Positions 1 to 14,880 of a stretch of DNA of 19,383 nt are shown here, piece after piece. This stretch comes from a virus. The stretch lies in UHGV virus genome UHGV-1344012. The stretch is one strand, 5' to 3'. Each line of letters begins with the position of its first letter. The stretch's first letter is position 1. The position numbers were made by a program, and so were the translations under genes. The notes beneath the pieces are model-generated. The model saw only the letters and a program-made list of their open reading frames with translations, did no database searches and had not been told where the DNA came from.

Positions 1-73
1 ACAACCTCGGGTTTCGGCAGGGCGTAAAGCGTGGTGTTGCCCTCCACGCAGTTAACATGACGGGCGTTAGTGG

Positions 74-1387
74 TTAACTTACTGATTTTAATAATCCTCC
101 CGTACTGCTCTCGTGGCTATGGGGCATCAATGGGGCAAAATCTGCCAGCTTCTGATTCAGCATTGCGATCTGCTCTGCGCTGCTGTCAGCCATCCATGCA
201 CCGTAAACATTGAACACCATCTGCGCGCTCGCATGCCCCATCTGACTGGCAATAAAACTCGGGTTTGCACCAGCAGATAATGACCAGCACGCATAGGTAT
301 GTCGTGACTGGTACGCCTTTCTGTGTCTGATCCCCGCGCGCTTTAGTGCAGCTTCCCATGAGTCGCCTACTGAATCGACCCGGTAGATAAATCCGACCTG
401 CTTACTGCGTCTGACCACATGCGGGTTAAAGACGAATGTACACTCATGGTTCACCGAACGACCGTACTCACGTAACTGCACTTCAATGTGATATTGCCTG
501 CCCAGCCTTGTCATTTCAGCCTGATTTTTCAGGATACTGATTGCGGGCTGGATAAGATGCACCACTCGATCTGTACTTGCCTCGGTTTTCGGTAGAGTGA
601 ACTCACCAAGTTTCGTATAATTACGCCTGACGGTAATTGTTCCCGCCTTCAGGTCGATATCTTCCCAGGCCAGGGAGACCAGTTCCCCGTGACGCATTCC
701 TGTGTACACTGCTAATGACCACAGGTTTTTCGTCTGCTGATGCCGGCATGCATCTATCAGGCGAATAAATTCATCACGAGACAGAGGATCTGGTTCTGCC
801 CTGGCTTTTTTCAGAGGTTTAATTCCCTCGAATGGGTTCACCTCTAAGTAACCGTGATCCGCAGCAAACTGAAACATTCCGGCCATTGTCGTCATGTAAT
901 AGTTCACAGTAACAACGCTTCGCCCTTTTGCCGGGGCTTTATTTTTCGTCGGACTCTGATAACCAGTTAGCAAATCTTTCCTAAGATACAGCAATTCCTC
1001 TTTGGTTACTGCTGACACCAGGCGATTACCTCCGATCCTCGGCACCATATTCCTTGCGACAGATTCATAGCGATTGAATGCGTTCGCGCAGATTTCCATC
1101 CGTTTCAGATCCAGCCATTTTTCTTCAAGTTCTTTCACTGTAATGTCTTTTTTACTTACACCAAAAGCCTTGAGGTTAGGGGAGTCAGGAAACTGGGTTG
1201 CATAATCAAAGGTTCCTGTGCGGATGGCAAAACATACTGATGTCCGCAGTTCCCCGGCTACCTTTCTGTTCTTAGCGGTGTCAGGGACACCGAGACTTTC
1301 CCTGACACGCTTACCTTTAAAATTAAACCAGATGCGTAATGTGCCACCGTGGTTTTCGACGCCTGTTGGATATGTGACTTTATCCAT
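74..1387 (-). CDS. int: Tyrosine-type site-specific integrase (phage integrase family)
   Basis: 437-aa ORF with a C-terminal region typical of tyrosine recombinases (...SRHTYACWSL..., downstream H/Y residues) and an N-terminal arm-binding-like region. Strong RBS (GGAGGT) upstream of ATG at 1385-1387; TAA stop at 74-76. Sits next to an excisionase-like gene. Confidence 0.9.
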   Translation of the reverse strand: MDKVTYPTGVENHGGTLRIWFNFKGKRVRESLGVPDTAKNRKVAGELRTSVCFAIRTGTFDYATQFPDSPNLKAFGVSKKDITVKELEEKWLDLKRMEICANAFNRYESVARNMVPRIGGNRLVSAVTKEELLYLRKDLLTGYQSPTKNKAPAKGRSVVTVNYYMTTMAGMFQFAADHGYLEVNPFEGIKPLKKARAEPDPLSRDEFIRLIDACRHQQTKNLWSLAVYTGMRHGELVSLAWEDIDLKAGTITVRRNYTKLGEFTLPKTEASTDRVVHLIQPAISILKNQAEMTRLGRQYHIEVQLREYGRSVNHECTFVFNPHVVRRSKQVGFIYRVDSVGDSWEAALKRAGIRHRKAYQSRHTYACWSLSAGANPSFIASQMGHASAQMVFNVYGAWMADSSAEQIAMLNQKLADFAPLMPHSHESSTGGLLKSVS

Positions 1388-1445
1388 TGGTGTTACCTCC
1401 AGACGCCCAAGAGCGATACGAGCTTACCTTTTTCATGGCATCAAA

Positions 1446-1682
1446 TCACCCTGGCTGCTTGCTTTTCATTGAAGCGACCCAGGCATCTACAGCCTTTCTG
1501 TTATACATGCACTCACTGGAAGGTTTGGGATTTCCGTCAGGCGATACGTGGATATACTCCCTCCCAATCATCCAGCATTCTTTTCTGGCACGGGTGATGG
1601 TTCCGGGTTTGAGCCCGGTAACCGCGATCAGAACGCTTTCACAAACCCAATCGTTGGGAGCTAACTGGAAAATATTGCTCAT
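1446..1682 (-). CDS. xis: Excisionase-like small DNA-binding protein
   Basis: 78-aa ORF immediately upstream of int on the same strand, with GGAG RBS 8 nt before ATG at 1680-1682. Size, position and sequence character (…LTGLKPGTITRARKECWMIGREYIH…) fit lambdoid Xis-like proteins; family recalled, not searched. Confidence 0.6.
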   Translation of the reverse strand: MSNIFQLAPNDWVCESVLIAVTGLKPGTITRARKECWMIGREYIHVSPDGNPKPSSECMYNRKAVDAWVASMKSKQPG

Positions 1683-1722
1683 AGTTATTTCTCCATTATC
1701 CCGGCTGCACCCGGGGAAAATT

Positions 1723-2301
1723 TTAGTTGTTGCTGGTGGTTGGGATTAGTTTCTGCCAAATCGCTGAAACATATTTCGCCTGGTGGCGGGCATCAGCCAG
1801 TGCGTTATGTGCAACCCCATCAAATGGCATATCACGCTTAGGATCGAAACCTACAACTCTGCCTAATGTGACGATGGTTCTGACGTCGTGATCATTCCAA
1901 AATTGCCACGGGCAAACCTGGCCGGCACGCTCATATGCGCCGCGCAATATAACGTTGTCGAAAGTAGCTCCATTGCCCCAAACTTTTAAATATTTAGGGT
2001 TATCAGAATGCCGATTAATGAAATGGCTCAGTTCAGATAGGGCAGATGATATCGGCATCGCATCATCAACACAGATTGCTGATCGTGCTTCTGAGCTTTG
2101 TCTTAACCACCACAGAATAGTGTCACCGTCCGGCACCGCTCCCTGCTCCATAGCGCTTTCAAGGTTAACGGCGCTGTAAAACTCCTGACCCAGTTCACCG
2201 CTTTGCGGATCGAAGAACACGGCACCTATGGAGACGATAGGGGCATTTGGTTTTTTGCCCATGGATTCGAGGTCGATCATTAAATTGTTCACGTTATACA
2301 T
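1723..2301 (-). CDS. DnaQ-like (DEDDh) 3'-5' exonuclease
   Basis: Exonuclease motifs visible: IDLESMG (Exo I, D-x-E), later acidic motif, and H-x4-D (HNALADA) near the C-terminus. Start placed at the internal ATG 2299-2301 (MYNVNNLMIDLE...) because it has an AGGAGAA RBS and abuts the stop of the upstream gene; the track ORF extends to 2493 by overlap. Confidence 0.75.
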   Translation of the reverse strand: MYNVNNLMIDLESMGKKPNAPIVSIGAVFFDPQSGELGQEFYSAVNLESAMEQGAVPDGDTILWWLRQSSEARSAICVDDAMPISSALSELSHFINRHSDNPKYLKVWGNGATFDNVILRGAYERAGQVCPWQFWNDHDVRTIVTLGRVVGFDPKRDMPFDGVAHNALADARHQAKYVSAIWQKLIPTTSNN

Positions 2302-3076
2302 TCTCCTGCTGCGGTGCTGCTGCCTGCTCAGCTGCCATAGCTGCATCGATTTGCTCACGTAATTTGGTCGCGTGATAATCGTCATCTTCATCCGTGATGG
2401 TCTGCGACCAGAAAATGCTATGGCTTCCGTAAACCATAGGCTCACGAACATCAACGGTTTTAGATACCAGCCAGTCCATGCGGAGTACGTCATCCGGAGT
2501 TACCGGAGAGTTGCCAGCCTGGAGAATAGATTTCAGCGCTGCCCTTGGCATTGCCGACCAGGCAAGGAATACGTCTGGCCTGTCGACATCTTCTGTCGGG
2601 AGAGTGTTTTCTATTTCGTCCAGCGCATCACTTAGCTTCTGAAATGCGTCGTCTGGAACAACGTGGCACTCTTCGCCATCAACATCTTGCTGACAGCTAT
2701 CATCTGCGAGTTCGAATGCGGCCCAGCAAACATTGAGCAGCATTTCAATAACGCGACGGTGTTCTGCTGTTACGCAATTCTCCGGCACTACCTGCGCTGG
2801 CGTGGCAGTGTAGAGCGGAATTACCGCATCTCCCATTGGCTGAGACAGGCACTTAAGGTGAAGATCACCCATCTTTGCATAAGCCAGAGTTTCCTCAGCG
2901 GCATAAAGCACAGGCTCAGCATTCAGGACTTCATCAATCACCTTGACAGCATCAGCCATTGCGTAGCCGAGATTACCGCCGTCACTTTGCGCTGCTGCTT
3001 TGCTGAGTATTTCGCTTATCTGGTGCAGGCGATCGAGTGATACAGGACCGTGCGCCGGGTGGTTGTTAGTTGTCAT
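2294..3076 (-). CDS. Hypothetical acidic phage early protein
   Basis: 260-aa ORF in the tightly packed leftward operon; its stop lies 2 nt from the exonuclease start. No motif recognised by eye. Confidence 0.6.
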   Translation of the reverse strand: MTTNNHPAHGPVSLDRLHQISEILSKAAAQSDGGNLGYAMADAVKVIDEVLNAEPVLYAAEETLAYAKMGDLHLKCLSQPMGDAVIPLYTATPAQVVPENCVTAEHRRVIEMLLNVCWAAFELADDSCQQDVDGEECHVVPDDAFQKLSDALDEIENTLPTEDVDRPDVFLAWSAMPRAALKSILQAGNSPVTPDDVLRMDWLVSKTVDVREPMVYGSHSIFWSQTITDEDDDYHATKLREQIDAAMAAEQAAAPQQENV

Positions 3077-3079
3077 GGG

Positions 3080-3265
3080 TTAGTCCCTCTCCACATTGAG
3101 AATGTCATCGTAATCATATTCAGTTTCATAACCGTCAGTGCCGAACAGAGTTACGACACCATCCTCTTCCCAGAACGTCTTCACTGTGTAACGTTTGCCG
3201 TGAAAGGTGATAACTACATCGCCAGGCTCAACGTCTTCTGCTCGAATTTTCAGTTTATCGACCAT
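3080..3265 (-). CDS. Small hypothetical protein (61 aa)
   Basis: Compact acidic ORF filling the gap between flanking genes in the operon, with stop/start spacing of 1-3 nt to its neighbours. Confidence 0.5.
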   Translation of the reverse strand: MVDKLKIRAEDVEPGDVVITFHGKRYTVKTFWEEDGVVTLFGTDGYETEYDYDDILNVERD

Positions 3266-3266
3266 C

Positions 3267-3920
3267 TCATTCCCCCTTCACGCCAATGCCAGCGGCGGCA
3301 CGTTCGGCTTCACTTTGTTCCCAAAACCACTTGTGAAGCGCCATAAGCTCTTCGTCAATCGGTGCATATTTGCGGTCAAAGTAGGCCTGAGCATCTTTCT
3401 CAGATTCGTCAGGCAATTCACCAGGCCCAAACAGCGTGTTATAAATCCATGCCAGTCCGCTCTTAGCGTCGCCAGTTGCCTGCCATTCGATAATCGCAGC
3501 CTGCATGACCAGAATGTTTTTCCCGATTAATAGGTCCAGTTCTTTGAACCGGTTGCGGATGTATGCATTCTCGCTTTGTAATTTTGCGTTGCGCTTCTCT
3601 GCGGCTTCTCTTCGGTTATTTGCACTATCGTACCGTTGCATCCATGACTTAATTTCAGCTTCAAGAAGGTCTTCCAGCTCCGCATTACGCTTGTCTTTAG
3701 TTTCCAGCTCATCCAGCAGCGCCAGCACAGTGGCGGGGTTGGATGCGGCGATGAATTCTGCATCAACCTTGAGGCAGTGCTGGGCGATTGCTTTTACCCC
3801 TACCTTGACCTCGTGGCCCCGCGCGCCTTTGTGTGGATGATATGATTCCCAACGGCCCCACGAGGCTTTGTTTGCTGCATCCGCCGTTTCACGCAGCGCC
3901 TGTTTGTTGATGTTGCTCAT
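3267..3920 (-). CDS. Hypothetical coiled-coil protein, possibly ead/Ea22-like
   Basis: 217-aa ORF with a central charged, helical segment (…NAELEDLLEAEIKSWMQRYDSANNRREAAEKRNAKLQSEN…). Start overlaps the upstream stop (translational coupling). Ea22-like assignment is from memory only. Confidence 0.55.
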   Translation of the reverse strand: MSNINKQALRETADAANKASWGRWESYHPHKGARGHEVKVGVKAIAQHCLKVDAEFIAASNPATVLALLDELETKDKRNAELEDLLEAEIKSWMQRYDSANNRREAAEKRNAKLQSENAYIRNRFKELDLLIGKNILVMQAAIIEWQATGDAKSGLAWIYNTLFGPGELPDESEKDAQAYFDRKYAPIDEELMALHKWFWEQSEAERAAAGIGVKGE

Positions 3921-4675
3921 TGTGCTGCCTCCTGGCGGTCTATGCGTTCAATTTCAGCCAGAATAAGCGCGCCAGCTTTCACCAGGTCACGGCGCGGGCC
4001 TGTCGGCTTCCACCATTCGGGTGCCCACGGCCAGTCCATCGGAATGCGGTTAAACGGCTGGATGGTGTTCAGGACGTAGCATGAGGATGCCCACAACAAC
4101 TGCGATTTTCCGTATTTGTCGTCATGCTCAGACGTCCAGCCCTCAACGGCTTTCTGCCGCTGGCGCTCTGCTATCACATCTAGAATTGCAGGATTGAACG
4201 TCCGCGCCTCCAGTTCTGCTATTTGATTCTCTGCTGCGTAGAGTTTGCGCTTCAGTTCTACGTTTTCCTCAGAAAGAGATACCGCTGCCTCCCAATTAAC
4301 GATCCCCTCATGGCAGGCCTCCTGATATGCCGTCAGCACAACATCAAACAGATTGCCATCCTGTAGCAGCTTAGCCAGTTCAGGCTTCCAGGCTACGCAG
4401 TCATCATCAGGGTCCTGCATGTTGTAGACGTAAGTATCAAAGGCACCCATCAAGCGCCCGAATCCACCTTTGTCGTCTACCAGCACTTGCCAGGCACGGA
4501 GAAGAAACAGTTTTTGATTACGATCTAAATCCGTCCGGGATAGTTCATCGGCGATAATGCTGATTTCACTACCGTGCCAGCGAGCGTCATTCCGTTGTGC
4601 CGCATGAAACAACTTCCAGAAATACTCGGTTTCTTCTTGGTCCGGGCGGCATTGCTTCAGTGTATGGACTGTCAT
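3917..4675 (-). CDS. Hypothetical protein with a C-terminal DUF550-like segment (tentative)
   Basis: 252-aa ORF; C-terminal W-rich segment (…EGWTSEHDDKYGKSQLLW…WPWAPEWWKPTGPRRDL…) resembles phage DUF550-type domains as recalled. ATGA overlap with the upstream gene. Confidence 0.55.
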   Translation of the reverse strand: MTVHTLKQCRPDQEETEYFWKLFHAAQRNDARWHGSEISIIADELSRTDLDRNQKLFLLRAWQVLVDDKGGFGRLMGAFDTYVYNMQDPDDDCVAWKPELAKLLQDGNLFDVVLTAYQEACHEGIVNWEAAVSLSEENVELKRKLYAAENQIAELEARTFNPAILDVIAERQRQKAVEGWTSEHDDKYGKSQLLWASSCYVLNTIQPFNRIPMDWPWAPEWWKPTGPRRDLVKAGALILAEIERIDRQEAAQ

Positions 4676-4998
4676 GCTGCACCGCCTTCAACGTTACGTA
4701 ACCAGATGCATACCGCGCCATCTTCGGTGTTGTGAATTGAACCGACAAACCAACCTTCACCGGCTGGCGATTCTGGCTGCCAGGCTGAAATATCGTAACC
4801 ATCAACTTCAGGATCGATGTCTTCTTCATCCCGGTAAACTACCGTCCATTCGAGGCCGTTTTTATCCAGCCAGGCGTTGAACTCATCAGGTGAGATAAAT
4901 TCACGACCATCGCAAAATTGCTCATAGACGGGGTGAGTCCANNNNNNNNNNTAGCCGTATTGGTCGCGTTCTACTGGTAATGCCGTAAATTTGCTCAT
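4672..4998 (-). CDS. Hypothetical protein (interrupted by a 10-nt N run)
   Basis: 108-aa ORF in operon context with overlapping stop/start to its neighbours; N run at 4942-4951 lies inside it, so the sequence and frame there are unverified. Confidence 0.45.
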   Translation of the reverse strand: MSKFTALPVERDQYGXXXXWTHPVYEQFCDGREFISPDEFNAWLDKNGLEWTVVYRDEEDIDPEVDGYDISAWQPESPAGEGWFVGSIHNTEDGAVCIWLRNVEGGAA

Positions 4999-5240
4999 TG
5001 GGCTGCTCCTTTGCGGACGTTTCGCAGAAGCTGGTTAAATATCAGCGTTAAGTTATTGCTGCATCCAAACGGCAGATCATTGACGCGGTATGTCGGTATC
5101 CCACCGCGTGCGCCAGACTTAACAATTCTCCCTGTTGCATAAAGCTGAGATAGTGCGCTGGCTACGGCTGGCGTCTTTTTACCCATCGCCCTTGCGATGG
5201 TGGCGTTCGGGTGGCCCTGGAGATATTCAAATACGGTCAT
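4995..5240 (-). CDS. Small hypothetical protein, possible winged-helix DNA-binding
   Basis: 81-aa ORF; start overlaps the stop of the upstream small ORF (ATGA-type overlap). Basic helical character suggests nucleic-acid binding, which is inference. Confidence 0.5.
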   Translation of the reverse strand: MTVFEYLQGHPNATIARAMGKKTPAVASALSQLYATGRIVKSGARGGIPTYRVNDLPFGCSNNLTLIFNQLLRNVRKGAAQ

Positions 5241-5404
5241 TGCGTTTTACCTTTACGTTCCTGTTCCAGTTGCGCCAATGATTCGGTTAATGCTGCGAAC
5301 GTAGCTTCAAGCCTGGTAGCGACTTCGCGCATAAGCGATGCATGCTTTGGTGGCAATTCAGCCACGGAGGCAAACGCCTCCGCCACGAGTTCTTTTACCT
5401 TCAT
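5237..5404 (-). CDS. Small helical ORF (55 aa), not in the ORF track
   Basis: Hand translation of the minus strand gives MKVKELVAEAFASVAELPPKHASLMREVATRLEATFAALTESLAQLEQERKGKTQ. Its ATG overlaps the stop of the HD gene and its TGA overlaps the ATG of the downstream gene, filling an otherwise unexplained 160-nt gap in a tightly coupled operon. Confidence 0.35.
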   Translation of the reverse strand: MKVKELVAEAFASVAELPPKHASLMREVATRLEATFAALTESLAQLEQERKGKTQ

Positions 5405-5940
5405 GCGGCGCATTGACGCTGCTCCATCAACTCATTAAAGCGATTTATGAACATGCCGTATGACTGGCCTGGACGAACTGGATTGATGATGAATAGGTCC
5501 GTCGGGACAACGCCATCGAGGCATGGCCACACGGAACCTTCGTCAATCTCAAAATCGCGGCGTTCGCTGGCGAGCATCACCAGATCGGCATATTTCACTG
5601 TTGGGTGTTGCTCCGTCGGTAGGCCAAATTTCTGGCGAATAGCAGCGTCTACGCGAGCTTCGATCACCTGGTAATCCGGTAACAGGCGCTTAAGCGGTGA
5701 GGGAATATCTTGCAGGTAGGCTTCGGCGGCATCATGAAGCAGTGCTTCTAAGGCAAACTCCTGCGGAACGAGATGGCTGGTTAAAACGCTATGCTGGCCG
5801 ACGCTGTAAAACTCAGGAAGATGCCCAGCAAAACGGCAGATATGAGACAGCGCAGTAGCAATATCCTCGATGACGATATCGTCCTGTTGGATATCGAGGT
5901 AATTAAAGTGTTTGCCGGATAATGTCTGAATGTAGCTCAT
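5401..5940 (-). CDS. HD-domain phosphohydrolase (YfbR/YfdR-like 5'-deoxynucleotidase family)
   Basis: Contains an HD motif (…LLHDAAEAY…) and upstream His residues typical of HD metal-dependent phosphohydrolases. Start set at ATG 5938-5940 (MSYIQTLSGKHF…) with GGAG RBS; the track ORF begins further upstream. Confidence 0.8.
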   Translation of the reverse strand: MSYIQTLSGKHFNYLDIQQDDIVIEDIATALSHICRFAGHLPEFYSVGQHSVLTSHLVPQEFALEALLHDAAEAYLQDIPSPLKRLLPDYQVIEARVDAAIRQKFGLPTEQHPTVKYADLVMLASERRDFEIDEGSVWPCLDGVVPTDLFIINPVRPGQSYGMFINRFNELMEQRQCAA

Positions 5941-6068
5941 GGTTTTCTCCATATTGGCGCGCTGCACCGCGCAGATTTTGGTTGCACGAATCCCTCGCCG
6001 GATGGCGATAATTAATGGAATTACGCTTCAATAAATCCCCGCGGCGCCGGGGATTTAATGCAGAGCAA

Positions 6069-6896
6069 TTAGGCTTTAAAGTTACCGATGAAAGTTTCCA
6101 CTGATTCACCGTCGAACTTGCTGATCAGTAAATCGCGGAATTCGTTGGCGATTGCTTCTTCCTGGGCTTCAAGTTGGACGATGCGCAGAACAAAGCAGGG
6201 TTCATCGCTGGTCAGCAGGCTGTTACGCAAGCTAAAGCGGCGTTCGCCCAGACCTTCATACGGCACACATTTGAATTCGAACGCTACCGGCATTACGTCT
6301 TTGCTGCTTGCTTCGACGCTTTGCATGAGTGATTTTTTACCAGCGAAATCACCAGTTTCATGATCCTGCTGGGTTGCTTGTTGGATAGTGATACGACGCA
6401 CGGCCTGAGCCGCCTGAGAAATCTCCATCGTCTTACCATCAGCGTCAAACGCCAGCAGGTAATCACTCCAGTCTTCCAGCCATTCAGCGATTTGCTTTTG
6501 TTTCAGACGCTGACCATCGATCTGTAGTAGCGCGCGAAACGGGGCGGTTTTCTTCAGAGTGATTGAAGCAACGTTATCGGCGTGACCGGGGTTATCCAGG
6601 GTGCCGATGTTGAACACTGAACGGGCGGTCATGTTGTCAGCGTCAATGAAGCAACGAGCTGGCTCGCTGGCGCTGGCATAACCTTTAGAATAACGTGCGA
6701 AGTCGTCAATACTGGTTGTGGTCATTGCGCCACGAAAGCGGAAACGTTCCAGAGAAAAGCGCTCAAGGCTTTCAACGCCAGTACCCTCTGGCAGTAATGC
6801 GGTCGGGCAAGCCAGGCCATGAATATCATTCAGGTGATAACCGGAAAGGACCAGGTCTTTGACCTGCTTGAAGGTGCCGCTGTCTAACTGAGACAT
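6069..6896 (-). CDS. DUF2303 family protein (YfdQ-like prophage protein)
   Basis: 275-aa ORF whose size, position next to the HD gene and sequence character match the YfdQ/DUF2303 family of CPS-53-like prophages as recalled; not verified by search. Confidence 0.65.
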   Translation of the reverse strand: MSQLDSGTFKQVKDLVLSGYHLNDIHGLACPTALLPEGTGVESLERFSLERFRFRGAMTTTSIDDFARYSKGYASASEPARCFIDADNMTARSVFNIGTLDNPGHADNVASITLKKTAPFRALLQIDGQRLKQKQIAEWLEDWSDYLLAFDADGKTMEISQAAQAVRRITIQQATQQDHETGDFAGKKSLMQSVEASSKDVMPVAFEFKCVPYEGLGERRFSLRNSLLTSDEPCFVLRIVQLEAQEEAIANEFRDLLISKFDGESVETFIGNFKA

Positions 6897-6952
6897 AAAA
6901 ATTCCTTATTAACTGATGATCAAAGTGGTATCAGTGAGTTTGTTGTTGCGGA

Positions 6953-7324
6953 TCACTGAGCCGCTTTAAGCTTTCCGTCCACCGCGCCGGTGATCCCGAA
7001 CAGTTGCCCCTGATCCTCCTGGAGGATGGTTAGCTTCCCGCCTTTGTTAACCCACATAGGGGTTTCGGTTGTGTCCTCTTCGGAGGCTTTACCGCGCGGG
7101 GTTGGGGTGCTGTAGTTCAGCTTGTGCTTGATCTTGACGCGCTTCTCTTCAACGGAATTACCCATACGCTCAAAATCAAAGGTGAGGACTACTTTGCCTT
7201 TGTTGCCGTTGTTCAGAACGCCAAGCGCGGTGGTGTTAAGTGCTGCCGCGATTTTGTTCATGAACACACCGGCATCCAGCTCGCCCAAAAAGTCGGGCAC
7301 TACGGTCATGCGGTCATTACTCAT
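6953..7324 (-). CDS. Hypothetical protein, first gene of the leftward early operon
   Basis: 123-aa ORF starting at ATG 7322-7324 with GAGGG RBS. The track ORF extends to 7603 only because a 10-nt N run (7347-7356) masks the upstream frame; that upstream part looks non-coding. Confidence 0.55.
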   Translation of the reverse strand: MSNDRMTVVPDFLGELDAGVFMNKIAAALNTTALGVLNNGNKGKVVLTFDFERMGNSVEEKRVKIKHKLNYSTPTPRGKASEEDTTETPMWVNKGGKLTILQEDQGQLFGITGAVDGKLKAAQ

Positions 7325-7486
7325 GGTTTTACCCTCGTTATGGCGGNNNNNNNNNNCTGCCACCGCCGAACTTTCTCCATACACAACAGAGAAGGGCACC
7401 TGCATTTGTCGGCGACTGCAATCGCTATCCTCTTGCCCGGGTGGATTGGGGAATGAGCCCGTCGCCCGGTGATGCCCTTGTCTCTT

Positions 7487-7518
7487 GTGTAAAAAAGGTG
7501 CCCACCGATGTGATGGGC
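7487..7518 (-). terminator. Candidate intrinsic terminator in the pL leader (tL-like)
   Basis: On the minus strand: GCCCAUC-ACAUC-GGUGGGC hairpin (7 bp incl. one G-U), then ACC and UUUUUU. The 3-nt spacer before the U-tract weakens the call. Confidence 0.35.
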
Positions 7519-7878
7519 AAAGACTACACACAGCAATGATGTTGTTGTGGCGGTGGTGCCTCCACCTGCCGGACCGGCCAGAACCGGCGACGCTACACCA
7601 CAAGAAACGTATTCATTTCAAAAGTTGAAATAAAAACTTGTTGGCCTCGTCACGTGCGCAGAGCCGCATTACCACAACGGTGAGAGCACTGTTTACCTGC
7701 TTTACCGCGTCGCGTCTCACGCAGTCCGATAATCAGCAATGCTCTCGCCTGTTGTGCCCTTAAAAAGCTGGCTGTCACCCTCAAGGGGAAAGAGAGCAGC
7801 CAGAACAGGGAACACGTCTTATTGCTTTGGCCTGCTTTTAACCACATCAGGCGCGGTGGTTTGGTGTCGACAGAAAAA

Positions 7879-7945
7879 AATCTAACTTAACTTAGTTTTC
7901 TGGTCAAGTGAAAACATCAAACTAAACTTAGCTTGATGCTTAGAG
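7879..7945 (-). promoter_or_regulatory. Candidate pL promoter with OL operator cluster
   Basis: Minus-strand -35 TTGACC (complement of 7902-7907), 17-bp spacer, -10 TAGATT (complement of 7879-7884). Near-palindromes with CTAAG/CTTAG half-sites overlap it (ctaacttaacttag at 7882-7895; ctaaacttag at 7922-7931). Confidence 0.45.
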
Positions 7946-7961
7946 GAAGAGTGGGAAGGGA

Positions 7962-8588
7962 TTAGAGTTCGTACTGAACGCCTTTAACAACGCCAATAAT
8001 GAGGCAGTTACCATTGATCGGGATGTTGGGGTAGCGAGGATTTAGTGGCACTAAAAATTTTTGTGGGCCATCAATGACAAGTTTTTTAACAGTCGCTTCA
8101 TTAGTGCCATCAAGACGCGCAACCACAATCTTGCCATGAAGGGGTTCGGCATCTGGATCAACAATAACGGTTGCCCCTTCAGGGATTGTTGGGAGGCCAT
8201 TTGGATTGGTCATTGAATCCCCTTTGACCTCTAAAGCGAACGAGTTATCCCCAATGCGAAGTGATGTTTCAACCCATTTATCGACATCACTGAACAAATC
8301 AGCGGCTTTACATTCCGTGAACTGCCCAGCTTGAACCCATGAAATCACCGGGACACGCCTCATTTTAGTTATGAGGGTGCCTTCAAATTCAGTGCCGTAA
8401 AGAATGTAATCTATTGATGTGTTAAAGAATTTCGCCAGCTTAACCAGCGATTCACCGTTTGGGATATTCACATCCTTTTCCCAATAACCCACCGCTACGT
8501 CACTAACCCCGCAGAACTTACCCAGTTCTTTTTGAGAGGTTCTTGTAACCCTACGTAGGGCTTTAATGCGCTGACCAACCGTTTCCAT
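7962..8588 (-). CDS. cI: CI-type prophage repressor (P22 C2-like; N-terminal HTH, C-terminal S24 LexA-like peptidase)
   Basis: 208-aa ORF with an N-terminal HTH (…QKELGKFCGVSDVAVGYWEK…) and C-terminal S24 catalytic dyad context (…EVKGDSMTNP… Ser; …EATVKKLV… Lys). Divergent from cro across an operator-rich intergenic region. Confidence 0.9.
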   Translation of the reverse strand: METVGQRIKALRRVTRTSQKELGKFCGVSDVAVGYWEKDVNIPNGESLVKLAKFFNTSIDYILYGTEFEGTLITKMRRVPVISWVQAGQFTECKAADLFSDVDKWVETSLRIGDNSFALEVKGDSMTNPNGLPTIPEGATVIVDPDAEPLHGKIVVARLDGTNEATVKKLVIDGPQKFLVPLNPRYPNIPINGNCLIIGVVKGVQYEL

Positions 8589-8610
8589 GAAAGCACCAAG
8601 TTTAAAAAAG

Positions 8611-8681
8611 ACTAAGTAATCTTAGTTTTTATTGACCAAAGTTAGATTGGTTATTAATATCTAACCAAACTTAGCTAAGGA
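8611..8681 (+). promoter_or_regulatory. OR operator cluster with candidate pR promoter and cro RBS
   Basis: Perfect palindrome ACTAAGTAATCTTAGT (8611-8626); -35 TTGACC (8632-8637), 17-bp spacer, -10 TAATAT (8655-8660); inverted repeat GTTAGAT…ATCTAAC (8641-8665); palindrome CTTAGCTAAG (8670-8679); AGGAGG RBS before cro. Confidence 0.55.
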
Positions 8682-8687
8682 GGCTTC

Positions 8688-8879
8688 ATGACAACCGACG
8701 AGATTGAACAACATTTCGGCAGCACTGAAAAAGTTGCCGAATTTTTTGGCATCACCAGTGAGGCCGTTTACCAGTGGCGTAACCGCCCCGCTGCTGAAGC
8801 TGCGTATCGAACTGCTGGTGAACTGGAATTTAACCCAGAACGTTATGGCAAGAATACATCGCCAAGCGATCAGAAATAA
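8688..8879 (+). CDS. cro: Cro-like repressor (P22 Cro family)
   Basis: 63-aa ORF immediately right of OR with AGGAGG RBS. Sequence (…IEQHFGSTEKVAEFFGITSEAVYQW…) resembles P22 Cro as recalled. Confidence 0.8.
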   Translation: MTTDEIEQHFGSTEKVAEFFGITSEAVYQWRNRPAAEAAYRTAGELEFNPERYGKNTSPSDQK

Positions 8880-8901
8880 CCACAGAAGGGAGGACCTAGC
8901 C

Positions 8902-9450
8902 GTGGGTATAGAACCTGAATGGAAAGTAGATAAGCAGCCAGCCTGGCTGGTGGCCGCAATCAAAAAAACGATCACCGAGCTGCCTGGCGGATATTCAGAA
9001 GCTGCTGAGTGGTTGGGTGTGACCGAGAACGCGCTGTTTAACCGGCTGCGTACCGATGGCGATCAGATCTTCCCGCTCGGTTGGGCGATGGTGCTTCAAC
9101 GTGCTGGTGGTTCAAACCACATAGCGAACGCTATTGCACGTCACTCGAACGGTGTTTTCGTGCCATTGGCTGACGTTGAAGAAATAGAGAACGGTGACAT
9201 CAACCAGCGTCTTATGGAGTCAGTGGAGTGGATCGGCAGGCATTCGCAATACGTTCGCAAAGCTACCGCTGACGGCGTTATTGATGCTCAGGAACGCGCC
9301 CAGATTGAAGAGAACAGCTATCAGGTGATGGCTAAGTGGCAGGAACATTTGACGCTGCTTTTCCGTGTGTTTTGTGCGCCGGAAAAAGGTGACGCCCGCG
9401 AGTGTGCAGCTCCGGGCGTCGTGGCAGACAAATCTTGTATGGAGAAGTAA
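8902..9450 (+). CDS. CII-like regulatory protein (Phage_CP76-like, tentative)
   Basis: 182-aa ORF starting at GTG 8902-8904, 8 nt after a GGGAGG RBS and just after the cro stop. The track's ATG at 8704 would overlap cro in another frame. CII-like assignment rests on position and recalled family resemblance. Confidence 0.5.
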   Translation: MGIEPEWKVDKQPAWLVAAIKKTITELPGGYSEAAEWLGVTENALFNRLRTDGDQIFPLGWAMVLQRAGGSNHIANAIARHSNGVFVPLADVEEIENGDINQRLMESVEWIGRHSQYVRKATADGVIDAQERAQIEENSYQVMAKWQEHLTLLFRVFCAPEKGDARECAAPGVVADKSCMEK

Positions 9451-9622
9451 TCCGCATGACCAGTTTAACGGCTTTTAACCGTTTGCCGCAACTCAGGATG
9501 ATCCCGGTACCGGGCGCTCCGTTGTTTCGGTATGAACGCAGAATAGCAAACCGCTGGGTGCCATGTAACCACAGTCGGGCGGTCGCAATTGTGGGGGTTT
9601 ACTACAGGAAGGCGAAACGCTT

Positions 9623-9802
9623 ATGCGCGAAGTTAACCGAAGGTTCAAAGACCACAGAGGGATCCCCGTTCGGGTTATCAGGTGGGAGCCAGAGACTCAA
9701 CGAGTTATCTACCTGCGGGATGGATATGACCACGAATGTTTCAGCCCGCTCGAACAATTCAAGCGCAAGTTTACAGAGTTAAAGGACGACCATGAGCACT
9801 AA
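9623..9802 (+). CDS. Small hypothetical protein (59 aa), translationally coupled to the replication gene
   Basis: Hand translation: MREVNRRFKDHRGIPVRVIRWEPETQRVIYLRDGYDHECFSPLEQFKRKFTELKDDHEH. Its TAA overlaps the ATG of the O-like gene (ATGAGCACTAA). It competes with a track ORF (9402-9782) in another frame, so this is uncertain. Confidence 0.35.
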   Translation: MREVNRRFKDHRGIPVRVIRWEPETQRVIYLRDGYDHECFSPLEQFKRKFTELKDDHEH

Positions 9803-10646
9803 ATTAACGGGTTACGTTTGGGATGCTTGTGCCGCTTCTGGCATGAAGCTATCCAGCGTTGCCATCATGGCGCGTCTGGCAGACTTCAGCAGTGATGAAG
9901 GGGTTAGCTGGCCTTCCATCGCTACCATCGCGCGCCAGATTGGTGCTGGTGAGAGCACGGTTCGTACAGCCATATCTCAGCTGGAAAAAGATGGTTGGTT
10001 AACCCGCCAGCAGCGCCGTAAAGGCAACCGAAATGCATCGAACGTTTACCAGCTCAATGTTGCTAAATTGCAGGCTGCTGCCTTTTCTCACCTGTCAGAT
10101 TCTGACGCATCAAAATCTGATGCCTCAAAAACCGACGCGTCAAAATCTGAGGCATCAAAAAACGATGAAAAAGGCGGTTTTCACCCGTCAGAATCTGGGG
10201 GGGATCCGTCAGTAAATACAACTACTGATCCATCAGTTAAAAAACCTTCTTGTCCGGTTGCGCCGCAACCAGACCCTGAAGTGATGATCACCGATAACGC
10301 CATCCTGGTTCTGAATCATCTGAACCTGGTTAGTGGCTCACGATACCAAAAATCAAAAACTTCTCTGGAAAACATCCGTGCTCGTCTGCGTGAAGGTTAC
10401 ACCGTTAGCGACTTACAGCTGGTGATCGACCTTAAGCATGAGCACTGGAACGGCAATGACGTGCAGTACCAGTACATGCGTCCTGAAACGCTCTTCGGTC
10501 CGAAAAAATTTGAAGGTTATCTGCAAAGCGGGATCCGCTGGGACAAGAAGGGGCGGCCACCGCGTGACAGCTGGGGTGAAAAGAAACATGACCCGATGAA
10601 GTTCGGTCCGGTTGATAGCAAGATTCCAGAGGGGTTCAGAGGATGA
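9792..10646 (+). CDS. Replication initiation protein (O-like; N-terminal winged-HTH, low-complexity linker, conserved phage C-terminal domain)
   Basis: 284-aa ORF with an N-terminal HTH-like region and a conserved C-terminus (…LNHLNLVSGSRYQKSKTSLENIRARLREGYT…). The central DASKS-type repeats are encoded by tandem 15-bp DNA repeats that look like origin iterons, as in lambda O. Confidence 0.65.
   Translation: MSTKLTGYVWDACAASGMKLSSVAIMARLADFSSDEGVSWPSIATIARQIGAGESTVRTAISQLEKDGWLTRQQRRKGNRNASNVYQLNVAKLQAAAFSHLSDSDASKSDASKTDASKSEASKNDEKGGFHPSESGGDPSVNTTTDPSVKKPSCPVAPQPDPEVMITDNAILVLNHLNLVSGSRYQKSKTSLENIRARLREGYTVSDLQLVIDLKHEHWNGNDVQYQYMRPETLFGPKKFEGYLQSGIRWDKKGRPPRDSWGEKKHDPMKFGPVDSKIPEGFRG
10101..10160. 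repeat. Four tandem 15-bp direct repeats (candidate origin iterons) inside the O-like gene
   Basis: tctgacgcatcaaaa / tctgatgcctcaaaa / accgacgcgtcaaaa / tctgaggcatcaaaa, each with a short internal dyad (e.g. GACGCGTC), followed by an A-rich stretch (aaaaacgatgaaaaagg). Confidence 0.6.
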
Positions 10647-11196
10647 TGGAAAATAAATACTGCCGTGCACTGGCTGAACTCCGTTCAAAACCAGCACACG
10701 AGTTGAAAGAGGTCGGTGATCAATGGCGCACTCCGGATCTGTTGTTTTGGGGGATCAATGCGATGTTCGGCCCTCTGGTGTTGGACCTTTTTGCCGACGA
10801 CAGCAACGCGAAGTGCCCAGCATGGTACACGGCTGAAGATAATGCCCTGACGCAGGATTGGTCAGAGCGGCTGGCAGAACTCGGTGGTGCCGGGTTTGGC
10901 AACCCGCCTTACAGCCGCTCTCAGTACCACGACAAGCAGGCCGTTACCGGAATGACCCACATCATTAACCACGCTATGGCCATGCGAGAAAAGGGTGGTC
11001 GGTACGTTTTTCTCATTAAGTCTGCGACGAGTGAAACGTGGTGGCCGGTAGAGGCAGATCACGTCACATTCATCCGTGGCCGAATTGGTTTCGATCTTCC
11101 TACATGGTTCGTGCCGAAAGACGAAAAGCAGCAGCCCACCAGCGCATTTTTTGCTGGCGCTATCGTGGTCTTCGACAAAACATGGTGGGGTGAGCG
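10643..11196 (+). CDS. Phage Dam-type DNA N6-adenine methyltransferase (3' end lost in an N run)
   Basis: Motifs typical of the phage N6-adenine methyltransferase family: …QWRTPDLLF…, …NAKCPAWYTAED…, and catalytic NPPY (…GFGNPPYSRS…). ATG overlaps the O-like stop. A 46-nt N run (11197-11242) truncates the visible ORF, so the true end is unknown. Confidence 0.8.
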
Positions 11197-11253
11197 NNNN
11201 NNNNNNNNNNNNNNNNNNNNNNNNNNNNNNNNNNNNNNNNNNCCCAATTTGCC

Positions 11254-11961
11254 GTGGGAAGAACGCAAACTGATGCGGCGCCGGAGCTGGACGCTGAGGT
11301 AGTGCCGGAGAAATCAGAGGCAGAACTGCCATTAACCCAAAAAGCCATTCTGGAAACCAGCGGTGTAGAGGCTTGGGCCTGTGTTGTCGCGGCGGTCGGC
11401 AAGAAAGACGAGTACACCTTCAGCGCGTCAAAGTTTGGTCATACCTGGGCTGCCGACTCTCTGGAAAACCCTGAATTTACCAATGTTTCACCGCTGACGA
11501 TCGACAGAGCGAAAAAGCTGATCAGCGAGAGCATCCTGGTGGGTGTTAATGCATGGCTGGAAACATTGCCCTTTGATAGCGATGACGTGAAACAAGACAT
11601 GTCAGAGCGGTTACGCACGGTTGCCGTTGAGTCTGCGAAAGAATACGGCATTAACCACAGTGAATTCATCGCGACCATGGAAAGCCTGGATAAAGCCAAA
11701 TGGTCAAATATTCGGGGGATCCGCGCCCATGTCCGTGAGACGCAGGAATCAAAGGACAAGGCGTTAAACGAATCGCGCGTTTGGCCTCTTGAGGTTGGAC
11801 TGGTGTTTAACCAGATTGAAGGGGCTGACGCTCTACCTGTTTCGCAGCAGAACAAGCTGAAAGCCAACATCAATCAACTCTGGCTGGAACGAACGGCCAC
11901 CAGCGAAATCATTACTGCCGCTTCTGAACTTGTTCGCAATATGCGGGGAGAGGCCGCGTGA
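11254..11961 (+). CDS. Hypothetical protein (true start unresolved because of the upstream N run)
   Basis: 235-aa ORF from the first in-frame GTG after the gap; the real start may lie within the gap. Its stop overlaps the rusA start. No motif recognised. Confidence 0.5.
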   Translation: MGRTQTDAAPELDAEVVPEKSEAELPLTQKAILETSGVEAWACVVAAVGKKDEYTFSASKFGHTWAADSLENPEFTNVSPLTIDRAKKLISESILVGVNAWLETLPFDSDDVKQDMSERLRTVAVESAKEYGINHSEFIATMESLDKAKWSNIRGIRAHVRETQESKDKALNESRVWPLEVGLVFNQIEGADALPVSQQNKLKANINQLWLERTATSEIITAASELVRNMRGEAA

Positions 11962-12344
11962 AACTGATCCTGCCTTTTCCTCCGAGCGTGAACACTTACT
12001 GGCGCGCCCCTAATAAGGGGCCGCTGGCCGGTCGTCACCTCATTAGCGCTGATGGTCGTAAATACCAGAGCGCTGCCTGCGTGGCGATCATTGAGCAATT
12101 ACGACGTCTCCCGAAGCCATCGACTGAACTGGCAGCGGTTGAAATCACTCTGTACCCGCCGGATGCGCGCCGCCGGGATATCGATAATTACAACAAAGCC
12201 CTGTTTGACGCGCTGACGCATGCGGGTGTCTGGGAAGACGACAGCCAGATTAAGCGCATGCTGGTGGAATGGGGACCCGTAGTGCCGAAAGGTCGGGTAG
12301 AGATAACGATCAGCAGATATGAACCGGCGGGTGCAGCCGCCTGA
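11958..12344 (+). CDS. rusA: RusA-family Holliday junction resolvase
   Basis: 128-aa ORF with RusA-like conserved residues (…RRRDIDNYNKALFDALTHAGVWEDDSQI…) and typical lambdoid nin-region position. Confidence 0.85.
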   Translation: MKLILPFPPSVNTYWRAPNKGPLAGRHLISADGRKYQSAACVAIIEQLRRLPKPSTELAAVEITLYPPDARRRDIDNYNKALFDALTHAGVWEDDSQIKRMLVEWGPVVPKGRVEITISRYEPAGAAA

Positions 12345-12357
12345 TATGGAGAAAAGT

Positions 12358-13041
12358 ATGAGCCAATTAGCAACAACAGCATTAACCATGTCCAGCAGCG
12401 ATATTGCTGAGCTGGTGGAATCACGACATGACCATGTTAAACGGTCCATTGAACGCCTGGCAGAGCGCGGTGTTATTGAACTCCCCCCAATGGGGGAAGT
12501 TAAAAATCACCTCAATCAGTCGGTATCGGTTTATCTGATAGGGAAGCGGGACAGTTATATCGTTGTCGCGCAGCTGTCGCCGGAGTTTACCGCGCGTCTG
12601 GTTGATCGCTGGCAGGAGCTTGAGCAGGCACAGCAGCAGACGATTCCTCAATCATTCTCTGAAGCCCTACGTCTTGCAGCTGACCTTGCAGAACAAAAAC
12701 AACAGTTGACTAACGAACTGGCTGCCGCTGCGCCGAAGGTAGCGTTTGTTGATCGGTACTGTACAGCCAGTGGGTCAATGTCATTCCGCCAGGTGGCAAA
12801 ACTGCTTAAGGCCAAAGAGCCAGATCTGCGGTTATTCCTCCTTGAGAACGACATCATGTATCGCCTTGGCGGAACGATGACCCCACGGCATCAGCATATT
12901 GATGCGGGCCGTTTTGAAATGAAAACCGGCACATCCGTAACCTCAAATCATGCATTCAGCCAGGCACGTTTCACGGCGAAAGGCGTGCGCTGGATTGGTG
13001 GACTGTGGGCAGAACACATTGCCAGGGGGCAGGTCGCGTGA
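12358..13041 (+). CDS. Antirepressor-like protein (Rha-like N-terminus, KilA-C/ANT-like C-terminus)
   Basis: Start placed at ATG 12358 (MSQLATT…) with GGAG RBS just after the rusA stop. N-terminal region resembles phage Rha regulatory proteins and the C-terminal region (…AFVDRYCTASGSMSFRQVAKLL…) resembles KilA-C/ANT domains, as recalled. Confidence 0.6.
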   Translation: MSQLATTALTMSSSDIAELVESRHDHVKRSIERLAERGVIELPPMGEVKNHLNQSVSVYLIGKRDSYIVVAQLSPEFTARLVDRWQELEQAQQQTIPQSFSEALRLAADLAEQKQQLTNELAAAAPKVAFVDRYCTASGSMSFRQVAKLLKAKEPDLRLFLLENDIMYRLGGTMTPRHQHIDAGRFEMKTGTSVTSNHAFSQARFTAKGVRWIGGLWAEHIARGQVA

Positions 13042-14033: not shown

Positions 14034-14049
14034 GAAGTATGGAGACCGT

Positions 14050-14880
14050 ATGAATCTGGACAATGTTTTAAAGTTTTTTGCGCCTAAAGGCATGCACATC
14101 TCAGATACCAGCAGAGCGACAGCAAGTGAGCAACTTACTGTGACTGATGTAATGGCTGCACTGGGGATGACTCAGGCTGATGCAGGCATCGGGCTGGCAA
14201 TGTTTCTAGGTAAAGCTGGTATCAGCAGCAAGGACAGGGAGATGTCAATTGCCTGGCTAACGGAGTACGCGAAAGAGCATGCGCCCATGGCTATTCGTAA
14301 AGCATCAGGGAAAAAGTTTCCCCTCTGCATGCGTATCCTTGCCCGGTTTGCCTATAACGATTATTCCTCATCAGCAGCTGATTGTGTGGCATGCCCAAAA
14401 TGTAGTGGTAAAGGGTTGCTTACAACCACTAAAACCGTGACTAAAAGCCATTACACAATGCGATTGCCACAATGGGCAAAAGACCTGAGACAGTCACCAT
14501 CTGACTTTGAGGTAAAGCGAGAAGTAACTGACTCCGAGCAAAGTTTATGTTCGCGATGCCATGGTACCGGAAAGTTAAGTAAGCGATGCCAGTGTGGCGG
14601 AACTGGCAAGACGGTTGACCGTAAAGCGACAGAACTGCAGGGCGTACCAGTTTACAAAGAATGTAAGCGCTGCGAAGGGCGGGGATACAGCAGGCCAAAA
14701 TCATCGGTTGCCTATCGAGGTGTTTTTTCTGAGTTGCCGAGTCTGCCTGACCGAACGTGGCGTTATAGCTGGAAACCATTCTATGAAAGCCTGGTGACCA
14801 AATGTTTCCAGGAGGAGAGTTATTCAAGCTCTCAACTGAATCGGGTGACTAAAAGTGAAGATGTGATAAATATCGCGTAA
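14050..14880 (+). CDS. Late-gene antiterminator Q-like protein (phage 82 Q / QuuQ-type, Zn-finger-like), copy 1
   Basis: Start set at ATG 14050 (MNLDNVLKFF…) with GGAG RBS, by alignment to the paralog at 17269. Cys-rich motifs (CPKCSGKG; CSRCHGTGK…CQCGGTGK; CKRCEGRG). Followed immediately by a consensus-like promoter and intrinsic terminator, the classic Q-pR'-tR' arrangement. Confidence 0.7.
   Translation: MNLDNVLKFFAPKGMHISDTSRATASEQLTVTDVMAALGMTQADAGIGLAMFLGKAGISSKDREMSIAWLTEYAKEHAPMAIRKASGKKFPLCMRILARFAYNDYSSSAADCVACPKCSGKGLLTTTKTVTKSHYTMRLPQWAKDLRQSPSDFEVKREVTDSEQSLCSRCHGTGKLSKRCQCGGTGKTVDRKATELQGVPVYKECKRCEGRGYSRPKSSVAYRGVFSELPSLPDRTWRYSWKPFYESLVTKCFQEESYSSSQLNRVTKSEDVINIA

What the first reader, a model, noticed from the sequence alone, without database searches (positions are those of the whole stretch)
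1..73. Attachment site and element boundaries are unresolved
The integrase 3' end points at the window start, so attL should lie within or left of 1-73, where I see no obvious repeat or tRNA fragment. The only tRNA is at the far right with its 3' end pointing away from the prophage, so it cannot be the integration target of this integrase in the usual geometry. With no structural genes present, the element may be a defective remnant, a mosaic of two prophages, or only part of a larger element.
Basis: inference. Interest (0 to 1): 0.35.

Follow-up and report, generated by a model that had tools for sequence, protein, structure and literature searches.

The report
Known φP27-type attL in yecE
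The "missing" attachment site is the already described 11-base φP27-type phage attachment site inside the E. coli gene yecE, at window positions 45-55, and the window is the left 19 kb of an ordinary lambda-like prophage of about 45 kb.

Summary

- **Left boundary.** Window 1-55 is E. coli yecE, identical to K-12. Phage DNA starts at position 56.
- **attL.** The common core is CACGCAGTTAA at window 45-55. The same 11 bases are annotated as attL and attR in the GenBank record of Stx2e phage φP27. The window integrase (74-1387, minus strand) is 90% identical to φP27 Int.
- **Right boundary.** It lies outside the window. Relatives with near-identical window ends have attR with the same core beside yecD, 38-47 kb away, after a full lambda-like set of head and tail genes. 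Joining the outer flanks of attL and attR rebuilds intact yecE.
- **The tRNA.** The tRNA at 19286-19362 is phage cargo. It is the first gene of a tRNA cluster (CAU, a tRNA-like gene, Thr, Gly) downstream of antiterminator Q, and the same module occurs in prophages at other chromosomal sites. No tRNA fragment lies left of the window.
- **Mosaic.** This reading is partly right. Window 1-17024 matches one phage lineage through Q and its lysis cassette. From about 17025 a second module follows (a primase-gene remnant, a second Q, orf316 and the tRNAs).
- **Defective remnant.** This is not supported in the closest relatives.

The finding is ordinary and of low interest.

The parts
1..55 (-). Host chromosome: the part of yecE (DUF72) from about codon 29 onward, read on the minus strand and continuing left of the window. 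It is the bacterial arm of attL.
   Evidence: 55/55 identical to K-12 MG1655 yecE. Genomes without the prophage match the junction query only up to window position 65.
45..55 (.). attL common core CACGCAGTTAA. The strand-exchange region probably lies within it.
   Evidence: It is the only block shared by attL, attB of K-12 and attR of the relative NZ_LR536430.1. It is identical to the features annotated attL and attR in φP27 record AJ298298. It occurs once in the window.
39..65 (.). Candidate core-type Int binding sites: imperfect inverted 9-mers (39-47 and 57-65) around the 9-base spacer GCAGTTAAC (48-56).
   Evidence: Read directly from the sequence. The dyad in attB, GCCCTCCAC / GTGGCGGGC, matches at 8 of 9 positions, the reconstructed attP at 6 of 9 and φP27 attP at 5 of 9. 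The function is inferred.
56..19383 (.). Prophage DNA: the left arm, the early region, the first late module, and the start of a second late module. It continues beyond the window.
   Evidence: Divergence from yecE begins at 56. φP27 homology starts exactly at window 56, which is φP27 base 12. Relatives continue with tRNAs, lysis genes, terminase, head and tail genes.
74..1387 (-). Tyrosine integrase, 437 aa, φP27 type.
   Evidence: Pfam Arm-DNA-bind_2 (2e-24) and Phage_integrase (8e-18). 90% identical to φP27 Int over 436 aa with no gaps.
119..138 (+). Two direct ATGGGGCA repeats 11 bases apart, candidate arm-type Int sites of the P' arm. They lie inside the 3' end of int.
   Evidence: the same positions in φP27 read ATGGGACAT and TTGGGACAT. 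The matching TGGGRCA repeats in the P arm are conserved in six attR arms from four genera. The function is inferred.
1446..1682 (-). Excisionase (DUF1233).
   Evidence: Pfam 3.7e-32 and PHROG 539 excisionase.
14020..14880 (+). Q-type antiterminator number 1.
   Evidence: Pfam Antiterm 5e-46 and phrog_127.
15639..16907 (+). Lysis cassette A: holin, holin and a GH19 endolysin.
   Evidence: Phage_holin_8, Phage_holin_3_7, Glyco_hydro_19 and PHROG endolysin.
16813..17265 (+). Fusion ORF across the mosaic junction near 17024. It joins an Rz-like spanin N-terminal part to a remnant of the 3' end of a primase gene.
   Evidence: PHROG hits are split: aa 34-72 match an Rz-like spanin and aa 76-149 match a 'DNA primase' family. 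Homology to the L019-type phage ends at 17024, and 17017-17259 is 76% identical to the region upstream of Q in L013.
17265..18101 (+). Q-type antiterminator number 2. It is interrupted by the masked run 17393-17435.
   Evidence: Pfam Antiterm 7e-35. It is annotated as a 278-aa antitermination protein in relatives.
18210..19160 (-). 316-aa protein of unknown function (phrog_7003), part of the Q2-tRNA module.
   Evidence: The identical protein sits between Q and the tRNA cluster in prophages at other chromosomal sites.
19286..19362 (+). Phage-borne tRNA with anticodon CAU, the first gene of a tRNA cluster. It is not an att target.
   Evidence: ARAGORN. The 100% identical sequence is annotated tRNA-Ile in relatives. 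It is followed by a tRNA-like gene, tRNA-Thr(UGU) and tRNA-Gly(UCC) in relatives and in unrelated prophages.

Best explanation
Window 1-73 holds the left junction (attL) of a lambdoid prophage that integrated by tyrosine-recombinase site-specific recombination into the protein-coding gene yecE. It used the same attachment site as Stx2e phage φP27. The crossover happened inside the 11-base common core CACGCAGTTAA (window 45-55), which lies in yecE codons 29-32. Bases 1-55 are host DNA and bases from 56 on are phage DNA. The integrase stop codon is 19 bases inside the phage arm. Int probably binds imperfect inverted core-type sites flanking the core, and TGGGRCA arm-type repeats in the P' arm (window 119-138) and in the P arm at the far end of the element. 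That binding model is inferred, not shown. The second junction, attR, is not in the window. In relatives it lies 38-47 kb to the right, beside yecD, after a complete lambda-like late region. The tRNA at the right edge is phage cargo in the late operon downstream of Q. The window itself is a recombinant of two lambdoid lineages joined near 17024, which is why it carries two Q genes.
For: - **Host flank.** Window 1-55 is identical to K-12 yecE and diverges from position 56. Genomes with an uninterrupted yecE match the junction query only up to window 65.
- **attR in a relative.** NZ_LR536430.1 is 99.9% identical over window 1-1500 and 100% over 17436-19383. Its attR beside yecD carries the same 11-mer, and its flank is 40/40 identical to K-12. 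attL-left plus core plus attR-right therefore rebuilds attB exactly.
- **φP27.** Record AJ298298 annotates attL (1-11) and attR (42565-42575) as cacgcagttaa. Its homology to the window begins at window 56. Int is 90% identical to φP27 Int, and the excisionase is adjacent.
- **Recurrence.** attL-attR pairs 38-47 kb apart occur in several further complete E. coli genomes. About 8% of complete E. coli genomes (423-431 of 5426) carry this int-yecE junction.
- **P arm.** It is conserved to about -175 from the core, with four TGGGRCA repeats, in E. coli, φP27, Citrobacter, Kluyvera and an unnamed enterobacterium. Sequence further out is unrelated.
- **Late region in relatives.** tRNAs, holin, lysozyme, terminase, portal, capsid and tail genes lie right of the window end.
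- **Literature.** yecE is a listed Stx-phage insertion site, citing the φP27 paper (PMC8065619; PMC8112680).
Against: - The window's own genome was not found in the collections. The best complete E. coli genome covers 73% of the window. The position of attR and the completeness of the element are therefore taken from relatives that share both window ends, not from the same molecule.
- The binding-site assignments (core-type dyad, arm-type repeats) are read from sequence only. The window-wide count of the arm motif is not above chance (4 found against 1.7 expected). Only its clustering and its conservation across phages are suggestive, and the P' copies lie in coding sequence.
- Nakamura et al. 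report a 21-bp att for some yecE Stx2a phages. I did not compare that sequence with this core.
Confidence: 0.93

Rival explanations
1. This is a conventional tRNA-targeted integration. The tRNA at 19286-19362 would be the att target and a copy of its 3' end would lie just left of the window.
For: None found. The only support is the general rule that many integrases target tRNA genes.
Against: The 4 kb left of the junction in a 99.9% identical relative holds yecE, yecN, cmoA and cmoB. Its longest match to the tRNA is 8 bases on either strand. The tRNA is followed by more tRNAs and about 28 kb of further phage genes. The same Q-orf316-tRNA module sits in prophages at other chromosomal sites. A complete attL/attB/attR set in yecE explains the junction.
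Confidence: 0.01
2. In the window's own genome the element is a truncated, defective remnant that lacks structural genes.
For: The right side of the window's own genome was not seen. Deleted or rearranged yecE prophages do exist. In NZ_OZ510750.1 attL and attR are only about 19.6 kb apart. In KL53 they are about 685 kb apart on opposite strands. The spanin gene of the first lysis cassette is truncated at the mosaic junction.
Against: The window ends inside the tRNA cluster, not at an attR, and is 100% identical there to relatives that continue with a full late region. Complete genomes sharing both window ends, such as NZ_LR536430.1, NZ_CM129885.1, NZ_LR536431.1 and NZ_CP017220.1, have attR 45-47 kb from attL.
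Confidence: 0.08
3. The two Q genes and the extra lysis cassette mean that two separate prophages sit in tandem or nested, with a second att site and integrase between them.
For: There are two antiterminators of the same family with a lysis cassette between them. Prophage-in-prophage integration is documented for yecE-type att sequences (PMC8112680).
Against: The window has no second integrase and no second copy of the core. The junction near 17024 joins a truncated spanin gene to the 3' remnant of a primase gene. That is the signature of recombination between phage genomes, not of site-specific insertion. In the relative NZ_LR536430.1 I found a single attL/attR pair bounding the whole element.
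Confidence: 0.04

Closest known systems
Stx2e-converting phage φP27 (AJ298298 / NC_003356; Recktenwald & Schmidt 2002) and its yecE attachment site
   Same: The 11-base att core CACGCAGTTAA is identical. The insertion point in yecE is the same. Int has the same 437-aa length and is 90% identical, and Xis is adjacent. The P and P' arms are conserved, including the TGGGRCA repeats.
   Different: Only the int-xis and att regions are related at the DNA level (about 85%). The rest of the window did not appear as φP27 homology in the megablast searches I ran. No stx genes are annotated in the closest relative. φP27 is 42.6 kb, while the relatives here are 45-47 kb with lambda-like virion genes.
Other yecE-integrated lambdoid prophages of E. 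coli (the Nissle 1917 prophage at yecE; Stx1a, Stx2a and Stx2d phages of O145:H28 and O80:H2)
   Same: They have the same int-yecE junction, with 98% identity over window 1-1500 in Nissle 1917, and an attR beside yecD about 44 kb away. yecE is described as a variable prophage hotspot (PMC8112680, PMC9751135).
   Different: The early, immunity and late modules differ. Nissle covers only 37% of the window. Nakamura et al. define a 21-bp att for their O145:H28 phages, which I did not compare base by base.
Phage lambda Int/attP architecture
   Same: It is a tyrosine integrase with an N-terminal arm-binding domain and an adjacent xis. The short common core is flanked by inverted core-type sites. 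Repeated arm-type motifs lie in a P arm of about 175 bp and in a P' arm that overlaps the int end.
   Different: The target differs (inside an ORF, not the gal-bio intergenic region), as do the core and the arm motif. The arm-binding domain belongs to a different family (Arm-DNA-bind_2). No binding was tested here.
tRNA clusters downstream of Q in lambdoid and Stx phages (for example ileZ-argN-argO of 933W; from my own knowledge)
   Same: The position between Q and the lysis genes, the orientation with the late operon, and a first tRNA with a CAU anticodon annotated as tRNA-Ile.
   Different: The tRNA set differs (CAU, an aberrant tRNA-like gene, Thr-UGU, Gly-UCC). A 316-aa gene on the opposite strand lies between Q and the tRNAs.

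Membership tests
φP27-type yecE-integrating prophage (att/Int system) | Tyrosine integrase closely related to φP27 Int, with an arm-binding domain and a catalytic domain | tested here: met
   Pfam Arm-DNA-bind_2 and Phage_integrase. 392/436 identical to φP27 Int with no gaps.
φP27-type yecE-integrating prophage (att/Int system) | attL core identical to the annotated φP27 att (CACGCAGTTAA), directly beside the int 3' end | tested here: met
   Window 45-55 against the AJ298298 misc_feature attL 1-11 and attR 42565-42575.
φP27-type yecE-integrating prophage (att/Int system) | Bacterial arm is yecE, interrupted at the conserved ARHFNCVEG-coding stretch | tested here: met
   Window 1-55 is identical to K-12 yecE, and the core covers codons 29-32.
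φP27-type yecE-integrating prophage (att/Int system) | Second copy of the core at the other end (attR), joined to the 5' remnant of yecE beside yecD | not testable with these tools
   It lies outside the window and the source genome was not found. The feature is met in relatives that share both window ends.
φP27-type yecE-integrating prophage (att/Int system) | Excisionase gene next to int | tested here: met
   DUF1233 excisionase at 1446-1682.
φP27-type yecE-integrating prophage (att/Int system) | Demonstrated integration and excision at this site | not testable with these tools
   This needs induction followed by attB/attP junction PCR.
tRNA-targeting integrative element (att = 3' end of a tRNA gene) | Direct repeat of the tRNA 3' end at the integrase-proximal boundary | tested here: not met
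   The longest match between the tRNA and the 4.1 kb covering the left flank and junction of the relative L001 is 8 bases on either strand.
Lambdoid phage-borne tRNA cluster in the late operon | tRNA genes between Q and the lysis genes, co-oriented with late transcription, travelling with the phage module whatever the insertion site | tested here: met
   The same Q-orf316-tRNA(x4)-holin order occurs in prophages with other integrases and at other loci.
Shiga-toxin-converting phage | stx operon between Q or the tRNAs and the lysis genes | tested here: not met
   The window ends before this region. The relative NZ_LR536430.1 has about 740 unannotated bases between tRNA-Gly and the holin and no stx annotation.

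The most novel reading that the evidence does not exclude
The most novel reading still open concerns the recombinant architecture, not the att site. A complete Q1-lysis module is followed by a second Q2-tRNA-lysis-virion module, joined by illegitimate recombination inside the spanin gene. This could be a still-inducible phage with two tiers of late antitermination and two lysis systems. If so, it would be a natural test of how lambdoid late regulation tolerates duplicated control modules. A smaller possibility is that the phage P' arm supplies a working replacement 5' end for yecE. PGAP calls a 257-aa chimeric ORF that starts at an ATT codon in phage DNA.
Probability: 0.1. Interest if true: 0.35.

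Novelty: already known. Interest (0 to 1): 0.08.

Why it matters
It matters little beyond correct annotation. The result fixes the left boundary of the prophage at window 45-55 and names the insertion target, yecE. It shows that excision would restore yecE exactly, and it removes the tRNA as a candidate att site. yecE is a recognised hotspot for lambdoid and Stx phages. About 8% of complete E. coli genomes carry this junction, and the 25-base attB is conserved in more than a dozen enterobacterial genera. This is one more non-Stx member of a well-known group. The duplicated Q and lysis modules are a tidy example of lambdoid mosaicism and raise no new question.

Tried and rejected
I searched for repeats between 1-100 and 18101-end. 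Only a 9-mer, TTTTAATAA, turned up, which is chance.
- **The stated refutation test.** I looked for a copy of the tRNA 3' end left of the window. Nothing longer than 8 bases occurs in 4 kb of flank in a 99.9% identical relative.
- **Finding the window's own genome.**
  - The best complete E. coli genome covers only 73% of the window.
  - Exact-protein look-ups with orf316 and with the cI repressor returned relatives, not the source.
  - A degenerate att pattern scanned over the species-representative genomes returned 37 empty attB sites and 4 attR junctions in other genera. It returned no E. coli record and no attL. The right boundary of this particular copy therefore stays inferred.
- **The φP27 paper.** PMC127862 is not held, so I relied on the feature table of its GenBank record instead.
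- **Arm-type motif.** The count of WTGGGRCAW over the whole window is not above chance. I keep it only as a clustered, conserved candidate.
- **Tandem or nested prophage.** Rejected for lack of a second integrase or a second core copy in the window.

Full report
**1. What is at 1-73 and around it**

The ORF list shows a 437-aa ORF at 74..1387 on the minus strand. It carries an Arm-DNA-bind_2 domain and a Phage_integrase catalytic domain, and a DUF1233 excisionase lies at 1446..1682. ARAGORN finds one tRNA in the window, at 19286-19362 on the plus strand, with anticodon CAT.

The window also holds five masked N runs: 4942-4951, 7347-7356, 11197-11242, 14958-14974 and 17393-17435.

**2. The left flank is yecE**

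Window 1-1500 matches complete E. coli chromosomes at up to 99.9% identity. The annotated features under the match are a DUF72 protein (yecE), a tyrosine integrase and an excisionase. In the relative NZ_LR536430.1 the genes left of the junction are yecE, yecN, cmoA, cmoB and torZ.

A query spanning this junction hits all 5426 genomes:
- 431 genomes continue into the integrase.
- Genomes with an uninterrupted yecE, such as K-12 MG1655, stop at the base that corresponds to window 65.

Direct reading of K-12 shows window 1-55 is identical to yecE (55/55). Divergence starts at position 56, apart from a short shared CGGGC.

**3. The core and the other end**

In NZ_LR536430.1 the 5' remnant of yecE lies beside yecD. 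PGAP annotates it as an incomplete 32-codon hypothetical protein. I read the junction and lined up attL, attB and attR. The three share exactly one block, CACGCAGTTAA.
- The 40 bases left of the core in attL are identical to attB.
- The 40 bases right of the core in attR are identical to attB.

Excision would therefore restore yecE precisely.

The 11-mer occurs once in the window (45-55) and once at each junction of the relative. About 0.01 occurrences are expected by chance in 19 kb counting both strands. It falls in yecE codons 29-32, F-N-C-V.

**4. It is the φP27 site**

A search of the phage collection with window 56-1700 finds φP27 at 85% identity. The alignment starts at φP27 base 12. 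The φP27 record annotates bases 1-11 as attL and 42565-42575 as attR. Both read cacgcagttaa. The two integrases are 392/436 identical without gaps.

Reviews list yecE as a Stx-phage insertion site on the basis of φP27 (PMC8065619). yecE is also described as a variable prophage hotspot in O145:H28 and O80:H2 (PMC8112680; PMC9751135).

**5. Anatomy of the site (sequence reading; function inferred)**

- **Core-type sites.** attB carries a dyad, GCCCTCCAC-GCAGTTAAA-GTGGCGGGC, matching at 8 of 9 positions. The reconstructed attP and φP27 attP keep a weaker dyad at the same spacing. This fits inverted core-type Int sites around a central exchange region.
- **P' arm.** Two ATGGGGCA repeats 11 bases apart lie at 119-138.
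- **P arm.** In the relative, all four matches to the same motif in 19 kb fall in a 51-base stretch 117-167 bases from the core.
- **Conservation.** I aligned six attR arms: E. coli, φP27, two Citrobacter, Kluyvera cryocrescens and a gut enterobacterium. Similarity begins about 175 bases from the core. It includes the four TGGGRCA repeats and a strongly conserved block next to the core. Sequence further out is unrelated.

This looks like a lambda-style attP of about 270 bases.

**6. Right boundary and completeness**

These come from relatives only. In NZ_LR536430.1 the element runs from attR at about 853.84 kb to attL at about 901.24 kb, roughly 47.4 kb. Right of the window end it carries the following genes:
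- tRNA-Thr and tRNA-Gly;
- a class II holin and a lysozyme;
- Nu1/A-type terminase, gpW, portal, an S49 protease, decoration and major capsid proteins;
- a full lambda-like tail set through J, plus tail fibres;
- an invertase and DinI.

The attL-attR distances in other genomes are:

| Genome | attL-attR distance |
|---|---|
| MB06232 | 47.4 kb |
| NZ_LR536431.1 | 45.5 kb |
| FAM21845 | 45.2 kb |
| MEI4O1-23 | 44.5 kb |
| Nissle 1917 (EcN_Sk) | 43.9 kb |
| ET5 | 41.9 kb |
| strain 1943 | 37.6 kb |

Two exceptions show that decay and rearrangement happen. NZ_OZ510750.1 has about 19.6 kb between the sites. KL53 has them about 685 kb apart on opposite strands.

I could not find the window's own genome. 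Its right end is therefore inferred.

**7. The tRNA**

The identical sequence is annotated tRNA-Ile in relatives. That is the usual call for a CAU tRNA of the lysidine type (my own knowledge). It is followed at once by an aberrant tRNA-like gene, tRNA-Thr(UGU) and tRNA-Gly(UCC).

The same Q-orf316-tRNA cluster precedes the lysis and packaging genes in prophages with other replication modules, other integrases and other insertion sites. It is phage cargo in the late operon.

No tRNA-derived repeat lies left of the junction.

**8. Mosaicism**

- Window 1-17024 aligns at 95-99% to a yecE prophage on contig DAJNWA010000003.1 (L019), apart from a divergent stretch at about 3609-4994. In that prophage the Q1-holin-holin-GH19 cassette is followed directly by HNH and small-terminase genes.
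- Window 17269-19383 aligns at 97% to the Q2 module of otherwise different prophages.
- Window 17017-17259 resembles (76%) the region just upstream of Q in one of them, L013: a 103-aa ORF and the 3' end of a primase/helicase gene.
- The ORF across the junction is a spanin-primase fusion.

The window is therefore a recombinant with two Q genes. It has one integrase, one core copy and no internal att.

Compared with NZ_LR536430.1, the early and immunity regions also differ in blocks. This is standard for lambdoid phages.

**9. Verdict**

The att site is the known φP27-type site in yecE, so this is not novel and is of low interest.

Noticed in passing
window 14020-18101: Two Q-family antiterminators (14020-14880 and about 17265-18101) bracket a holin/holin/GH19 lysis cassette. 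The spanin ORF 16813-17265 is a fusion to a primase-gene remnant, which marks a recombination junction near 17024.
   Followed up: partly
window 19365-19383; L002 21930-22003: Directly after the CAU tRNA, relatives carry a tRNA-like gene that ARAGORN reports with an abnormal anticodon loop ('tRNA-???', ag) and that PGAP does not annotate. The window ends 19 bases into it. It is conserved in every prophage examined that carries this module.
   Followed up: no
window 1-95 (minus strand); L001 3322-4095: PGAP annotates a 257-aa chimeric yecE whose first 13 or so codons come from phage DNA overlapping the int 3' end, starting at an ATT codon. The phage side of the core also keeps the A-R-H codons of native yecE. 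Whether this truncated yecE is expressed is unknown.
   Followed up: no
L019 17319-19366 (DAJNWA010000003.1): In this relative, yecE is cut a second time, leaving a 149-aa DUF72 fragment. The cut is made by another element with a 507-aa large serine recombinase and tail genes. yecE can therefore host two different integrative elements side by side.
   Followed up: no
NZ_CP030919.1 (KL53) and NZ_OZ510750.1: In KL53, attL and attR of the yecE prophage are about 685 kb apart on opposite strands, which suggests a chromosomal inversion through the prophage. In NZ_OZ510750.1 they are only about 19.6 kb apart, which suggests a deleted prophage.
   Followed up: no
L023-L063 (species-representative genomes): The 25-base attB stretch of yecE is conserved, exactly or with one or two changes allowed by the degenerate search pattern, in 37 representatives. 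They include Salmonella, Klebsiella, Citrobacter, Enterobacter, Kluyvera, Atlantibacter and others. Four further representatives carry attR junctions with the same P arm. No E. coli representative was returned, which I cannot explain.
   Followed up: partly
window 4942-4951, 7347-7356, 11197-11242, 14958-14974, 17393-17435: Runs of N (10-46 bases) interrupt several genes, for example the Dam methylase at 10643-11961 and Q2. They look like masking rather than assembly gaps, because relatives align straight through them.
   Followed up: partly
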